DNA of 64,000 nucleotides from an uncultured Alphaproteobacteria bacterium (lineage in GTDB: Bacteria; Pseudomonadota; Alphaproteobacteria; Rickettsiales; UBA1997), in assembly GCA_949288805.1 (NCBI GenBank), contig CASELL010000003.1, positions 1,789 to 65,788 of the forward strand. Direction: 5' to 3'. Below, piece after piece: positions 57,579 through 64,000 of this stretch. Below the pieces are notes generated by a model. That model had not been told where the DNA came from. It searched no databases and worked only from the letters and a program-made list of their open reading frames with translations. Each line of letters begins with the position of its first letter. Position 1 is the first letter of the stretch. A program made the position numbers and the translations under genes.

Positions 57579-60500
57579 TTAAAATTTAATAATTGTCGGC
57601 CCGCATTCTTCAACCTGTCTATTACCACCAGAAGAGCCGGTACCATACCATTCATTTGTTGGATAAAAAATAAGATTACTATGATTTGTTTGTTTATATG
57701 AAGTCTCCACCCAATAATTTTTAGCAAAAGACGGATCTGAACATACAAATCTTACAAAAGTATGTCCTTTAACACCAAAACCTAAAAAACCATACCTACT
57801 TTTTCTAAAATGGGAAGAATCGTCTTTGACAATTTTATTTACTATTTTAAAATTTTTATCTTCACATAAAAATTCAAAATATGTCTCTCCTGTAAACGGT
57901 CTAGTTGATGTATCTCTTTGTTTTCCAGTAATTACAAAAATAATAGATTGCATATGTCTTAAATTTTCAACGGCCACTTTTGTTGACTTGCTTAACTGTC
58001 CACTGACATGTAGTTCTGTCCAACCACTATCACCACTACACCTGTTTTTACAAGCCGGCTTATCAACAACAACCCAACCATTAGGGGTGCAAATCATACC
58101 CATAAAAAAACCAGATTTCAAAGTAGCCTTTGAACTAGATGTAGCATTATTCCTATTTTTTCTAAATGAATTATAATGATTATTACACTTTGTTAATTCC
58201 GAATCAATAGATCTTTTTTTTGTTTTTAGAGCATTTGTTAAGTTAGATATTTTTTCCTTAAAAAACATGTCAAAAGCATCATTTAATGTTTTTGTTCCAT
58301 CGGCATTCAAGGGCGAACAACTAGCAGATACTGGATATAACTCTTCATTAGAATCGATTTTATATAAAGAACAAGAAACTCCATCTATTGTTTTTTTATA
58401 AAGGGCTGTGGTGCCATCAGAAGATGTTATATTCAATATAATACTACTTGTATCGAAATCTACTAAATAAACCGTTCCTTCTGGAATTTCAATATTTTCT
58501 TCTAAAATAATTTTAAACAAAGAGAAATAATCTTTTTCTTCTGGAATATAAGAATAACCATCTTTAATCTCAGATGAACCATTCATACTTTGCAATTTTT
58601 CATAAATATACTTATTATTAAAATAACTATAATAATTATCATAACCAGCTATACTACTTGTATCATTGGATATTATCTCTTTAATTTCTTCTTTTATTTC
58701 TGGTATTTTATTGGTATATTCCTCTTTATATTTATCTAATATACTTTTAATGCTAATATATACTGGTTTTGCCTCAAATTTTGACTTGTTAACAAGTATA
58801 CACAAATTCTCTGCTATATTATTACAATTCTTTATATTAGAATATTTATCTTTAACATAAGAATCAGCATTTGTTATGATGTCATTTAAAGACAAAATAT
58901 TTGTACAGGCCCCACTAGTTGTATTTCCCTTTACAGCTTCTATACTATCATAATCCGAGTTATTAAATCTAGACAAATAAGGCTCAATATCAATATAACA
59001 TTTAACATTTCTACTATCAATAAATTCATAGTAAGTTTCAGTGTTTCCATCTTCTAAAACAACCTCAGAACATTCTGTACCATCACACGCAATATGAATA
59101 AAATCATTATTAGAGCAAGAAAAACCACTTTTTAGATATTTAACCCCATTATACTCTAATTCACCACCTATAGAACTAGGACAACCGTTTCCACTACAAC
59201 AAACTAAACTATTAGAATTTTCAAAAACAACAGGGGAAAGATTAGTGTCAATATTTATTGTTTCCTCTTCAACAACAGATACTTTACATATATTAACATT
59301 ATTATTCTCCTGTAGATAATAAGATCCAGCATAAAAACCTGTAGAATCTCTATAATATGTTTTACCAGTAGAATTTCCTAATAAATTATTAAATTCTGTT
59401 ATCATAGGATCTTCTAACTCGCTTGTTTCAATCATATTTGAAGCAGAAGCATCGGCACTACATACCATAGCTACACTACTAACAGTATCTGCACCTTCTA
59501 CAATACTATTATTTATCTCTTCAATTATTTTGTTAAATATTTCAGTTTTATATGTGTAAATTAGATTTTTTATAGCTATTTCATTTTTAACTATAATATC
59601 ATTATTAACATAATCACCATTAACAAATATCTTATCAACAACTTGGTTAACTATATTGTCTTTTATTATATTTGAGTCTACAGATATACTATTAACCTTA
59701 TTTATTAATAAATTAATATTGCTAGAATCATTTTGTTTTTTTATATAAGATCCTGTTTTTTTATTATTAATAGCATCAGATTCTGGATTATCTAGTAAGG
59801 CAAAACAGGTGCTAGCCTCAGACTGTTTATTGGTACCGTTAAGTCCTTTGATGTATGTATACATTGTATAATTAGGAACTCCTTCATTATATATATCTTG
59901 ACCATTAGGACATATATTAACACCATTACCATACTGGGACATTGTAACTATTCCGTACTTTTCTAAATCAAAAAAATCACGATCATTAATATCATTTAAA
60001 ATATTGAAATCCCCATCATAAGACCGAATTACAACATTTTTATTGAAAGGATAATCTTTACAAACACTTACATTATTAATTGTAGTAATATTTTTACATG
60101 TTAAACTAAAACCACCAGAGTTTAGTTCTTTTATAGCTCCATTCTTTAAACTTAAATTATTATGTTTGCAATACATTGGAACACAATATGTAGATAAGAA
60201 ACCTTTTGCGTTTTTAATTAAAGCATTATTAAGTTCTTGTTTTGTAAATTTTTTACACTTTTTTTTAGCAATATCAGAACAAAATTCTATACTTTGTTCA
60301 GAACCATTAGGAAATAGAACAGATATATCAAGATCTCCATATTTAAAATAATCTGGATGATCAATACCAACAGTTTGCCCATTTATTTTTCCTTGTTCGG
60401 CATGTTCTGTACATTTCAAAGTTACACTATTATACAAACCATAAGCAGCTAAACCATTATACTCTGAAAAAGAATTTGCCCAATCTCCATGTTCTGTTTT

Positions 60501-63500: not shown

Positions 63501-64000
63501 TCTAGAAGGAATAGATACTCCATCTCCAACTAAATTAGAACACTCTTTATCTAAACAACCTAAAAATAGAGAATTATCAACATAAGTTTTATTAGAATCG
63601 TAATATCTAACAGCTGGACAAATTATTGGTTTTTCTATATCAACACAAAGTCCAAACTCTCTTGGAGTAATTTCTCTCTCTTCAAAAAGTCCAACGTTAT
63701 AACTTGAATTCTCTGTCACAGTTAAACAAGAACAAGAATAATCTGGCTCTGGAACACCGCCATCTGTTGTTGGTTTTTTATAAACAATACCATATTGGTT
63801 GTATCCACCTTTAAAACAAGCTTGAAATTCTTTTATATTATCACTATTTACATAATCTAAGGTTTTGCCTAAATATTTTGTACAGTCAATTTCCTTAACA
63901 TAAACAGAATTATTATCAGTCATATTTATAACTTCTTTACAATTTGGACCACCTTCTTCTTCTTTTGGACACAAAATATATACTTTTTTATCAACAAGAC
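57579..64000 (-). CDS. Giant cysteine-rich modular protein of unknown family; the 5' end lies beyond the window
   Basis: The ORF is uninterrupted. The track start at 63972-63974 is only a TTG, and the frame stays open through 64000 (upstream codons L V D K K V Y I). I count about 68 Cys in 2131 aa. Recurrent motifs are listed in the findings. Confidence 0.85.
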   Translation of the reverse strand, partial: LVDKKVYILCPKEEEGGPNCKEVINMTDNNSVYVKEIDCTKYLGKTLDYVNSDNIKEFQACFKGGYNQYGIVYKKPTTDGGVPEPDYSCSCLTVTENSSYNVGLFEEREITPREFGLCVDIEKPIICPAVRYYDSNKTYVDNSLFLGCLDKECSNLVGDGVSIPSRYYEQHFWRTDEKILGRVPSVFYTPTLGNAEFPSTIYCGADKEDNNTSHLCVDSNNGIVDGECIGYWRSSNLGVPTAICTAYEDGNKINYEYKIVNEELSCQRYYCENLGYNNIGEPIVDEKEIINNYSTYFTKNEVNSYSKIKETDYRSYEHYQEIDSNSIDTRGLSNGFASWVGPVPTNGDFANEVISQYCLSGFGPAGTNVSLYLSAPTADVAIDYNSVLRYPTVLNFYKKQQEYFDNNFTSTNGFLYPRRICNQLGEWETVDSIYSSTPKLIDENYNNLFFHNGENSYGNNNFWIGVFEKTSGNGIFQISDFPEEIRNNAHNVNLITQYAAKGYCERLVCRKLEVNDLSYNTYSKELVGGRYVDNDTGLKVWQHTGGAYWDRVSAPRNSSDILSENLYTSYNFSQNIYKVFSDFYGDIIEDSYKHLKKVYGICQTEFGYYNRGTELEVNNFMSQLDIVSNRYDKLKYYDATKVDPRNVDMDTENEEQVKPSRVCTSLGLWDGVTDPCYRSCEMLDIYHTNFSNNIYGNNITNSSIFVDNGDILSIDVTLGSTGKEQAREDRFNLLNLKSKDLDEAYGATGAVKRGDFVTGGAYWPRTLFTTKNQFKTETTGPKAGLKYIEVEGTCDSTYNDDGMNEIRTYVQYKDYNNVAVKPTRKCYEDGSWGPVEANSRCVLYKNCKTFTFTIKDLGTLINAYNSNMSLVEMNKIFSNMPFDDIGHGVCTDATTEFCNLITLEAKSTKFGDSYSENTIDQPSSGYNSVLNPKLLCNISDANLPEDYVGGWNLKNRDIGLYFIPKTCNASTPLYDLDRKNNESNIGQLSLVLSEFIKEVEFDANNNMTIIPKSDYTNFYCKQSLLQYLNSNNPIFTKNNKNETGDNVIIGSKKYGSYQRGFVCNNDRYYNDVTGNKYYNKKIILNCDSSNKYYNLKKNGQSINNEVLGNQDFIYVKDCKPRTCANNQYQSREWSSSNILGSKELGSNRNLNYTSTLRCGNNSAFVIKTEHGDWANSFSEYNGLAAYGLYNSVTLKCTEHAEQGKINGQTVGIDHPDYFKYGDLDISVLFPNGSEQSIEFCSDIAKKKCKKFTKQELNNALIKNAKGFLSTYCVPMYCKHNNLSLKNGAIKELNSGGFSLTCKNITTINNVSVCKDYPFNKNVVIRSYDGDFNILNDINDRDFFDLEKYGIVTMSQYGNGVNICPNGQDIYNEGVPNYTMYTYIKGLNGTNKQSEASTCFALLDNPESDAINNKKTGSYIKKQNDSSNINLLINKVNSISVDSNIIKDNIVNQVVDKIFVNGDYVNNDIIVKNEIAIKNLIYTYKTEIFNKIIEEINNSIVEGADTVSSVAMVCSADASASNMIETSELEDPMITEFNNLLGNSTGKTYYRDSTGFYAGSYYLQENNNVNICKVSVVEEETINIDTNLSPVVFENSNSLVCCSGNGCPSSIGGELEYNGVKYLKSGFSCSNNDFIHIACDGTECSEVVLEDGNTETYYEFIDSRNVKCYIDIEPYLSRFNNSDYDSIEAVKGNTTSGACTNILSLNDIITNADSYVKDKYSNIKNCNNIAENLCILVNKSKFEAKPVYISIKSILDKYKEEYTNKIPEIKEEIKEIISNDTSSIAGYDNYYSYFNNKYIYEKLQSMNGSSEIKDGYSYIPEEKDYFSLFKIILEENIEIPEGTVYLVDFDTSSIILNITSSDGTTALYKKTIDGVSCSLYKIDSNEELYPVSASCSPLNADGTKTLNDAFDMFFKEKISNLTNALKTKKRSIDSELTKCNNHYNSFRKNRNNATSSSKATLKSGFFMGMICTPNGWVVVDKPACKNRCSGDSGWTELHVSGQLSKSTKVAVENLRHMQSIIFVITGKQRDTSTRPFTGETYFEFLCEDKNFKIVNKIVKDDSSHFRKSRYGFLGFGVKGHTFVRFVCSDPSFAKNYWVETSYKQTNHSNLIFYPTNEWYGTGSSGGNRQVEECGPTIIKF

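What the first reader, a model, noticed from the sequence alone, without database searches (positions are those of the whole stretch)
57579..64000. Giant (>2,139 aa, still open at the window edge) cysteine-rich ORF with no recognisable family
Seen: one uninterrupted 6.4-kb minus-strand ORF takes up 10 percent of the window. It has no stop upstream of the track's TTG start, so the true N-terminus, and any signal peptide, lies outside the window. I count about 68 Cys (about 3 percent, an even number) and abundant Asn, Tyr and Gly. I could not find TM helices, P-loops, RTX/RHS/YD repeats or an autotransporter barrel. Known: reduced intracellular genomes rarely keep multi-kb ORFs unless they act as surface or secreted host-interaction proteins. 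Disulfide-rich modular architecture is typical of extracellular, often eukaryote-like, proteins. Inference: this is a candidate novel secreted or surface host-interaction protein and the best candidate in the window for something undescribed.
Basis: partly seen in the sequence, partly recalled or inferred. Interest (0 to 1): 0.8.

Follow-up and report, generated by a model that had tools for sequence, protein, structure and literature searches.

The report
Giant cysteine-rich protein with swappable tip
The open reading frame is real: it is the last 2,139 residues of a 3,999-residue exported, cysteine-rich protein of unknown family, found once per genome in gut-dwelling Rickettsiales-like bacteria, and its last ~150 residues are replaced between otherwise near-identical strains, which suggests a contact surface with a host or partner.

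Summary
Window 57579-63998 (-) is an unbroken 2,139-codon frame with 68 Cys (3.2%, against 1.3% in the other ORFs).

It is residues 1861-3999 of a 3,999-aa protein (P0236) from the same contig. The full protein has four parts:
- an N-terminal signal peptide;
- a ~1,100-aa Cys-rich arm;
- a ~46-aa Ala/Gly-rich hydrophobic hairpin;
- a ~2,800-aa Cys-rich arm.

No Pfam, NCBIfam, PADLOC, PHROG, PDB-sequence or Foldseek match is significant. An exhaustive HMMER search of 1.84 billion proteins found 74 unnamed relatives. The GTDB matches (12 loci, 11 genomes) are Rickettsiales-type MAGs, from termite, ruminant and mouse gut where the source is named. Each carries one copy, in the syntenic order gap/pgk, small ORF, giant gene, usually RadC.

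In the family, 87 of 123 Cys are conserved. Against a sister species, omega is 0.04-0.15 over the first ~1,200 window residues and 0.44-0.75 at the C-terminus.

New result: the last ~150 aa (nt 57582-58031), after the conserved motif KSGFFMGMICTPNGW...CKNRCSG, form a cassette replaced between strains that are 93-95% identical upstream. No immunity-like gene follows.

One sister lineage has the gene split into six ORFs.

Function is untested. My best guess is an envelope-anchored, disulfide-rich interface protein with a variable recognition tip.

The parts
57579..63998 (-). C-terminal 2,139 codons plus stop of a 3,999-codon gene. The 5' 5.6 kb lies beyond the window edge.
   Evidence: P0236 (3,999 aa) ends with exactly this sequence.
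62913..63824 (-). Core domain of the superfamily (window aa 59-362). Motifs: MTPREFGLCVD..P.ICPAVRYYDS, YYEQH.WRT, NAEFP, GEC.GYW..P.A.C, C.RY.C, RG.SNGFA.W. It is shared with a second tier of ~1,800-2,600-aa Cys-rich proteins.
   Evidence: Invariant columns in A6/A8. hhalign of A8 against P0050 gives 99.2% probability over these residues. Second-tier matches fall on this stretch. Coordinates checked by translation.
60282..63998 (-). Conserved Cys-rich part of the C-terminal arm (window aa 1-~1239). It is nearly invariant within the species and under strong purifying selection.
   Evidence: Omega 0.04-0.15 against P0034. 0-8 variable positions per 100 aa among nine strain variants. Conserved Cys map. 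AF2 pLDDT 60-88 for aa ~690-1200 but below 50 for aa 63-683.
61458..61643 (-). Best example of the C-x3-G-x-W module (window aa 786-847): ...EVEGTCDSTY...KPTRKCYEDGSWGPVEANSRCVLYKNC. It is sushi / Eph-CRD-like at motif level only. Similar motifs lie at window aa 421-427, 663-680 and 1970-1987.
   Evidence: Regex and context. Sub-threshold Ephrin_CRD hits in 7 of 10 members, mapped to this motif in P0002. Weak profile-profile links between the modules, probability ~60%. AF2 pLDDT 70-88 with beta strands here.
58119..60281 (-). Variable region (window aa ~1240-1960). Conservation and alignment occupancy across the family are low, strains differ by in-frame indels, and dS is raised between strains.
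   Evidence: Family conservation profile. Strain variation profile. dS 0.09-0.17 here against 0.003-0.02 upstream.
58032..58118 (-). Conserved boundary motif KSGFFMGMICTPNGWVVVDKPACKNRCSG, which precedes the variable tip.
   Evidence: Translation. Conserved in all orthologs aligned.
57582..58031 (-). Polymorphic C-terminal tip cassette (150 aa). It is replaced by sequences with no detectable similarity in strains whose flanks are near-identical.
   Evidence: Tip comparisons. DNA identity against L028 is 92-100% in the ~400 nt upstream of ~nt 58050, 30-57% across the tip, and 99-100% again in RadC. The same backbone/tip discordance is seen in P0041/42/43. No Pfam hit for six tip types.

Best explanation
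The ORF is the distal 53% of a 3,999-aa envelope protein made by a clade of anaerobic, gut-associated Rickettsiales-like bacteria. These are probably symbionts of gut protists, but that is inferred.

Proposed mechanism:
1. The precursor is exported by Sec through its N-terminal signal peptide.
2. A central ~46-residue Ala/Gly-rich hydrophobic hairpin holds it in a membrane. Both giant arms (~1,100 aa and ~2,800 aa) therefore lie outside the cytoplasm.
3. There, about 87 family-conserved cysteines form stabilising disulfides.
4. The arm encoded in the window runs from a strongly constrained core, through a length-variable region, to a conserved boundary motif and a ~150-aa tip.
5. The tip is exchanged by recombination between strains and lineages. 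I take it to be the surface that contacts a variable partner (host or another cell), so it would set specificity.

Shown: the ORF, its full length, the signal-peptide-like and hairpin sequences, Cys conservation, purifying selection, tip replacement, taxonomic restriction and synteny.

Inferred: topology, disulfides, exposure, and the tip's role in recognition.
For: - Full length and N-terminus.
- A signal-peptide-like N-terminus in most full-length orthologs and a hydrophobic hairpin at ~1000-1280 in all but one (3,776-4,540 aa, 2.7-4.1% Cys).
- 87 of 123 Cys conserved in at least 80% of 28 sequences that share ~30% identity, on both sides of the hairpin.
- Purifying selection. Omega is 0.20 overall and 0.04-0.15 in the conserved part, against 0.05 for flanking housekeeping genes. 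Between strains it is 0.28-0.30.
- Intact 3,723-4,529-aa ORFs in the 11 GTDB loci examined, all from MAGs of Rickettsiales type, one copy per genome.
- Conserved order gap/pgk, small ORF, giant gene, with RadC downstream in most loci.
- Variation within the species is concentrated in the last ~900 aa.
- Tip cassette replacement has sharp DNA breakpoints. Tip and backbone histories also disagree in a second clade.
- No phage, plasmid or defence-system relationship.
Against: - No experiment and no confident structure. AF2 gave mean pLDDT 28.7 with four sequences and 50 with nineteen.
- No outer-membrane export device (autotransporter barrel, TPS domain, T1SS signal) was recognised, so how the arm would pass the outer membrane is unknown. 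It could remain periplasmic.
- The signal peptide and hairpin were judged from hydropathy and by eye. No dedicated predictor was available.
- No Dsb genes were looked for outside the window.
- The tip's omega (0.44-0.75) is below 1. Relaxed constraint combined with recombination, rather than positive selection, could explain the variation.
- One lineage tolerates a broken gene, so the gene is dispensable at least there.
Confidence: 0.45

Rival explanations
1. It is a polymorphic-toxin-like exoprotein. The giant conserved body would be a delivery scaffold and the swappable ~150-aa C-terminus a toxin or effector domain released after the conserved KSG..CTPNGW..CKxRC boundary. The hydrophobic hairpin might serve insertion into a target membrane. 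The target would be the eukaryotic host or competing cells.
For: - A conserved boundary motif is followed by tips with no detectable similarity, in strains 93-95% identical upstream.
- Tips move independently of the backbone.
- Signal peptide and giant size.
Against: - No immunity-like ORF or orphan cassette follows the gene. RadC starts 15-125 nt after the stop in the window, L004, L012 and L028, and a different housekeeping gene follows in L014.
- No toxin, RHS/YD, FHA, PAAR, LXG or TPS domain in Pfam or NCBIfam.
- Several tips keep weak common landmarks (NLRH, a C-terminal I.Y strand). That suggests one fast-evolving fold rather than unrelated toxins.
Confidence: 0.2
2. It is a structural component of the cell envelope: a disulfide-cross-linked periplasmic or membrane scaffold, analogous in logic to the cysteine-rich envelope proteins of Chlamydia. 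It would have no direct role in host recognition, and the variable C-terminus would simply be poorly constrained.
For: - Single copy, vertically inherited, in a housekeeping neighbourhood.
- With a signal peptide and a hairpin, both arms would be periplasmic.
- Many conserved Cys.
- Tip omega is below 1.
Against: - Sharp cassette replacement, with raised dS and tip exchange between lineages, is not what mere relaxation predicts.
- Peptidoglycan synthesis genes are present (PBP1A, PBP2, MurA-like), so a substitute for the wall is not obviously needed.
- The gene is broken in one lineage.
Confidence: 0.2
3. It is a decaying or non-functional giant ORF, either a gene relic or a mis-assembly.
For: The ortholog in L002/L003 is split into six ORFs by at least two frameshifts (one at an A8 run) and two TAA nonsense codons. 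The breaks are identical in two independent assemblies.
Against: - The probability of a 2,139-codon open frame by chance is about 1e-92.
- Identical or near-identical intact ORFs occur in many independent assemblies.
- Omega is 0.04-0.2.
- Indels between strains keep the frame.
- Intact orthologs occur in more than 20 lineages.
Confidence: 0.03

Closest known systems
Polymorphic toxin systems (CdiA-CT, Rhs-CT and related; from established knowledge of these families)
   Same: A very large exported protein, with a conserved motif marking the start of a short C-terminal domain. That domain is replaced by unrelated sequences between close strains and moves between lineages.
   Different: No immunity gene or orphan cassettes downstream. 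No RHS/YD, FHA, TPS, PAAR or LXG domains. No recognisable toxin fold. The body is non-repetitive and Cys-rich, with a central hydrophobic hairpin.
Sushi/CCP modules and the Eph-receptor cysteine-rich domain (Pfam PF00084, PF25599)
   Same: Four C-x3-G-x-W...C motifs, preceded by G..Y.C-type strands. There are sub-threshold Ephrin_CRD hits in 7 of 10 members and a sub-threshold Sushi hit in the distant relative P0050. The top, non-significant, Foldseek PDB hit is the CD97-CD55 complex 7do4_B.
   Different: All hits are below the curated cut-offs (best E 0.0027-0.17; 17 residues in the one hit mapped). The first sushi cysteine is missing, there are long insertions, and the modules are not in tandem.
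Bilobed hydrophobic domains of chlamydial Inc proteins and helical-hairpin membrane anchors (from established knowledge)
   Same: A single ~46-55-residue hydrophobic stretch rich in small residues. It is long enough for two helices with a tight turn, which would place both flanks on the same side of a membrane.
   Different: Here it sits 1,130 residues into a Sec-type precursor, between two Cys-rich arms. Inc proteins are small, secreted by type III systems, and face the reducing host cytosol. No sequence relationship was tested or found.
Giant autotransporter or repeat adhesins of intracellular bacteria (Rickettsia Sca proteins, chlamydial Pmps, RTX/Bap-type adhesins)
   Same: Very large, lineage-specific, exported proteins with variable regions, presumed to face the host.
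   Different: No beta-barrel translocator and no tandem repeats. The C-terminal aromatic residue is not conserved among orthologs. No Pfam match.

Membership tests
Polymorphic toxin systems (CDI/Rhs type) | Conserved boundary followed by a C-terminal domain that differs between close strains | tested here: met
   Tips show no detectable similarity while the upstream 1,500 aa are 93-95% identical. The DNA breakpoint is sharp, near nt 58050.
Polymorphic toxin systems (CDI/Rhs type) | Cognate immunity gene (and often orphan cassettes) immediately downstream | tested here: not met
   RadC follows at 15-125 nt in the window, L004, L012 and L028. Another housekeeping gene follows in L014.
Polymorphic toxin systems (CDI/Rhs type) | Recognised delivery or filament modules (TPS/FHA, RHS/YD, PAAR, LXG) and a recognisable toxin domain | tested here: not met
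   No Pfam or NCBIfam hit in full-length proteins or in six isolated tips.
Sushi/CCP domain proteins (PF00084) | Match to the Pfam model above the gathering score | tested here: not met
   No Sushi hit in the family. P0050 scores 16.3 bits against a cut-off of 20.7. Ephrin_CRD hits all have E of 0.0027 or worse.
Sushi/CCP domain proteins (PF00084) | Four-cysteine ~60-aa beta-sandwich fold | tested here: inconclusive
   AF2 places beta strands with pLDDT 70-88 at window aa 786-853. Foldseek gives no hit with E below 0.001; the top hit, the CD97-CD55 complex 7do4_B, has E 0.78.
Type V (autotransporter) adhesins | C-terminal beta-barrel translocator with a conserved terminal aromatic residue | tested here: not met
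   No autotransporter Pfam hit. The C-termini of orthologs differ (…IIKF, …YNVR, …VKRI, …NKN).
Repeat-type giant adhesins (RTX/Bap/Ig-like) | Tandem internal repeats | tested here: not met
   Self-BLAST finds none. All-against-all hhalign of 160-aa tiles gives at best 60% probability on 15-35-residue motifs.
Sec-exported extracytoplasmic protein | N-terminal signal peptide | tested here: met
   There is a basic n-region, a hydrophobic h-region and a small-residue c-region in P0236/P0032, and N-terminal hydrophobic segments in most orthologs. This was judged by hydropathy and by eye; no SignalP was available.
Sec-exported extracytoplasmic protein | Disulfide bonds actually formed | not testable with these tools
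   Only inferred, from 87 conserved Cys.

The most novel reading that the evidence does not exclude
This would be a previously undescribed class of bacterial host-interface protein. It is a ~4,000-residue, non-repetitive, disulfide-rich molecule anchored by a central hairpin. Its ~150-residue tip is exchanged like a cassette, without any immunity partner, to retarget a symbiont to different protist hosts or host structures. It would define a new domain superfamily, shared with ~2,000-aa proteins of other Rickettsiales-like symbionts.
Probability: 0.3. Interest if true: 0.8.

Novelty: new variant of a known kind. Interest (0 to 1): 0.62.

Why it matters
Gut-associated anaerobic Rickettsiales are known only from metagenome bins, and nothing is known about how they meet their hosts.

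This gene takes ~12 kb of a reduced genome. It is kept in one copy at one locus across lineages from termite, ruminant and mouse gut, and its core is as constrained as housekeeping genes. Yet the tip is swapped between strains. That combination marks it as the most likely specificity determinant of the clade.

It gives a concrete handle for experiments: the tip cassette, the boundary motif and the core domain. It also adds a protein superfamily with no structural or functional annotation.

If the tip proves to be a toxin or a receptor-binding module, that would extend the polymorphic-C-terminus principle to a scaffold with no known delivery module and no immunity gene.

Tried and rejected
- Translating from nt 64000 gave the wrong frame; the frame starts at 63998.
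- The first GTDB scan, with exact peptides of the window protein, found nothing. A profile-based scan succeeded.
- AF2 with a four-sequence alignment failed, with pLDDT 28.7.
- AF2 with nineteen sequences gave a usable model only for aa ~690-1200. Foldseek against PDB and BFVD gave nothing below E 0.05.
- Profile searches against PDB sequences gave no meaningful hit for either half of the protein.
- The first representative search failed because the profile exceeded 1,200 positions.
- No internal repeats were found.
- The small upstream ORF is not a dedicated partner. It has more than 170 homologs, including in Pelagibacterales.
- The window-type tip was not found in JGI metagenomes.
- No match in phages, plasmids or PADLOC; one insignificant PHROG hit.
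- Literature searches found nothing on this clade or this protein.
- A test for relaxed selection in the broken L002 ortholog was dropped. Its closest intact relative is only 62% identical, so dS would be saturated.
- No thioredoxin-type CxxC ORF was seen in the window.
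Full report
OBSERVATION

On the minus strand, window 57579-63998 translates into 2,139 sense codons followed by a stop. The correct frame begins at nt 63998; translating from nt 64000 gives a frame full of stops. The ORF finder's TTG at 63974 is an internal codon, because the frame is open to the window edge.

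The product has exactly 68 Cys (3.18%). Asn is 10.9%, Tyr 6.7% and Gly 6.7%. The other long ORFs of the window have 1.27% Cys. With the window's composition (24% G+C), the chance of 2,139 codons without a stop is about 1e-92.

WHAT THE WINDOW IS

The neighbouring genes are housekeeping:
- RadC, 15 nt downstream of the giant gene;
- a lone GTA-type distal tail protein;
- rpiB, thyA, transketolase and trmD;
- an [FeFe] hydrogenase and pyruvate:ferredoxin oxidoreductase;
- PBP1A, PBP2, FtsH, UvrD and a P-type ATPase.

Exact look-ups show that the window comes from an 81,623-nt NCBI contig. A 90%-identity relative of its thyA is named 'MAG: Rickettsiales bacterium'. The organism is thus a low-GC, anaerobic, Rickettsiales-like bacterium known only from metagenomes.

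THE FULL-LENGTH PROTEIN

Looking up the window's RadC returned contigs from many samples in which the upstream gene product is 3,999-4,024 aa. P0236 (3,999 aa, same 81,623-nt contig) ends with exactly the window's 2,139 residues. The window therefore holds residues 1861-3999.

The protein starts with MLKNITKLCFSFKVVLFLIAPILYTKTSFSA/DY. This has a basic n-region, a hydrophobic core and a small-residue c-region, so it is a Sec-type signal peptide by inspection.

A single 46-residue Ala/Gly-rich hydrophobic stretch lies at residues ~1128-1175. It is long enough for a two-helix hairpin. There are 39 Cys before it and 84 after it.

With a cleaved signal peptide and a hairpin, both arms would lie outside the cytoplasm. 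This topology is inferred, not shown.

THE FAMILY

- A single-sequence search of 5.8 billion proteins found only four relatives.
- A profile search found 26 proteins, of which ~20 are full-length (3,776-4,540 aa).
- An exhaustive HMMER scan of 1.84 billion cluster representatives found 74 proteins at E below 1e-3 and 38 below 1e-30. None has a functional name; the few named are 'hypothetical protein'.
- Most full-length members have a hydrophobic N-terminus, all but the most divergent one (P0048) have the hairpin at ~1000-1280, and all have 2.7-4.1% Cys.
- A profile-guided scan of one genome per GTDB species found 12 loci in 11 genomes. Nine are titled Rickettsiales bacterium, one 'uncultured Alphaproteobacteria' and one 'Rhizobiaceae'. 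By isolate name they come from termite gut (Roe453, Gsp477, Ncb351), water-deer colon (RGIG8782), mouse gut (MGBC110556) and other sources. There is one copy per genome.
- The 11 of these loci examined have intact ORFs of 3,723-4,529 aa.
- Gene order is conserved: gap or pgk, a 63-67-aa ORF, the giant gene, and usually RadC. The small ORF is a widespread alphaproteobacterial protein, not a specific partner.

A second tier of ~1,800-2,600-aa Cys-rich proteins shares a ~300-aa core with window aa 59-362 (hhalign probability 99.2%). One example, P0050, lies on an alphaproteobacterial-type contig inside a eukaryote-sized assembly.

NO KNOWN FAMILY

- Pfam, NCBIfam, PADLOC and PHROGs give nothing significant for the window part, the full protein, ten family members or six isolated tips.
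- phmmer and three profile searches against all PDB sequences give nothing.
- tblastn against phage and plasmid collections gives nothing.
- AlphaFold2 on window aa 1-1200 reached pLDDT 28.7 with four sequences and 50 with nineteen. Only aa ~690-1200 came out at 60-88.
- Foldseek of that model against PDB and BFVD gave no hit below E 0.05.
- There are no internal repeats. That is unusual for a giant bacterial exoprotein.

The only recurrent hint is a C-x3-G-x-W...C motif, present four times, all within the window part. It draws sub-threshold Ephrin_CRD hits in 7 of 10 members, a sub-threshold Sushi hit in P0050 and an HRM hit in P0052. The top PDB fold hit, also not significant, is the CD97-CD55 complex 7do4_B; CD55 is a sushi-domain protein. 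I treat this as a lead, not as membership.

CONSTRAINT

- In an alignment of 28 family members with ~30% identity, 87 of the 123 Cys of P0032 (the 4,004-aa variant from the same species) are conserved in at least 80% of sequences.
- Against the sister species (P0034 gene, dS ~0.5), omega is 0.20 overall. It is 0.04-0.15 over the first ~1,200 window residues, comparable to 0.05 for the flanking housekeeping genes. It rises to 0.44-0.75 in the last ~340 residues.
- Between strains, omega is 0.28-0.30. The C-terminal half has dS 0.09-0.17 against 0.003-0.02 upstream, which suggests imported DNA.
- All indels between strains keep the frame. Observed lengths are 3,999, 4,004, 4,024, 4,041 and 4,045 aa.

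THE POLYMORPHIC TIP

This is the new finding. Among nine strain variants that are at least 93% identical overall, variation is concentrated in residues 3100-3999 and is extreme in the last 200.

After the conserved motif KSGFFMGMICTPNGWVVVDKPACKNRCSG (window nt 58032-58118), the last ~146-182 residues of P0236, P0242 and P0239 show no detectable similarity between P0236 and either of the other two. P0242 and P0239 are only 26% alike. The preceding 1,500 residues of all three are 93-95% identical.

At the DNA level, window against L028 is 92-100% identical in the ~400 nt before ~nt 58050 (with dips to 71-87% further upstream). Identity falls to 30-57% across nt 57580-58050 and returns to 99-100% in RadC. 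This is a clean cassette replacement.

The tip of P0034 resembles that of the distant P0037 (37%, E 1e-27) more than that of its close relative P0236. In another clade, P0041 and P0042 have 57% identical backbones but 85% identical tips, while P0041 and P0043 have 72% backbones and 24% tips. Tips therefore move independently of the body.

No extra ORF follows the gene in any locus examined. Tips have no Pfam match. Some weak landmarks (NLRH, a terminal I.Y strand) recur between tip types.

DECAY IN ONE LINEAGE

In L002/L003 the ortholog is collinear with P0001 but spread over three frames and six called ORFs. There is a frameshift at an A8 run, a second frameshift, two TAA nonsense codons and a further break before the last ORF. 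The two independent assemblies are identical across the region.

The long open fragments indicate that the disruption is recent.

INTERPRETATION

I put the best-supported reading at 0.45. It is a Sec-exported, hairpin-anchored, disulfide-stabilised envelope protein. Its distal arm, the window ORF, carries a recombining recognition tip.

The rivals are:
- a polymorphic-toxin-like effector without an immunity partner (0.2);
- a purely structural envelope scaffold with an unconstrained end (0.2);
- a decaying ORF (0.03).

Shown: the sequence features, distribution, selection and cassette exchange. Inferred: topology, disulfides, exposure and function.

NOVELTY

The family is uncharacterised and has no detectable link to any described family.

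The general kind is known: a giant exported symbiont protein with a polymorphic C-terminus. The particular build has no described counterpart that I could find. It is non-repetitive and has ~87 conserved Cys, a central hairpin, a boundary motif, and a swappable tip with no immunity gene.

I rate it 'new variant of a known kind', interest 0.62. I give 0.3 probability that it represents a truly new class of host-interface protein.

Noticed in passing
window 56283-56876 (+): A lone gene for a GTA/phage-type distal tail protein (TIGR02217, Rcc01695 family; Pfam DUF2460). It is convergent with RadC and overlaps it by 12 nt. No other tail genes are nearby. It sits at the same place in sister strains and species (L004, L012, L028).
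   Followed up: partly
window 49785-51089 (-) and 7722-11225 (+): An [FeFe] hydrogenase and a pyruvate:ferredoxin oxidoreductase in a ~24% G+C Rickettsiales-type genome. These indicate an anaerobic, hydrogen-producing metabolism, unlike classical aerobic Rickettsiales.
   Followed up: partly
L012 7789-7980, L001 1654-1845, L013 7764-7964, L014 7767-7970, L011 986-1186, L002 3762-3962, L028 4789-4980 (upstream of the giant gene, outside the window): A highly conserved 63-67-aa basic ORF (MGTKNNPKNRG...) always lies 20-40 nt upstream of the giant gene. It has no Pfam or NCBIfam match but more than 170 homologs, including in Pelagibacterales. It is therefore a general small alphaproteobacterial protein of unknown function.
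   Followed up: yes
L002 4000-16166 (and L003): The ortholog is split into six ORFs. One frameshift sits at an A8 run (L002 5509-5518), where transcriptional slippage could in principle restore the frame. Two breaks are plain TAA nonsense codons (6828, 13943).
   Followed up: partly
L027 7861-13836 (P0050; contig of assembly GCA_013558295.1): A ~2,000-aa, 5.6%-Cys relative shares only the ~300-aa core domain. It lies on an alphaproteobacterial-type contig (NDUFA12, MlaD, Mur ligase) within what looks like a eukaryote genome assembly. The superfamily therefore extends to other, probably aerobic, symbionts.
   Followed up: partly
L012 4057-4662 and L028 1066-1632: An ankyrin-repeat protein is encoded a few kb upstream of the giant gene in the window's species group. 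It is a typical candidate host-directed effector.
   Followed up: no
window 57582-58031 (-): The tip cassette has a somewhat higher G+C (31.6%) than the rest of the gene (27%) and the window (24%). The alternative tip in L028 does not (26.6%).
   Followed up: partly
window 46609-48036 (-) and 55348-56175 (-): Two ORFs (475 and 275 aa) have no Pfam match at E of 1e-5 or better and no cysteines. The 275-aa ORF is conserved in place in L004, L012 and L028.
   Followed up: no
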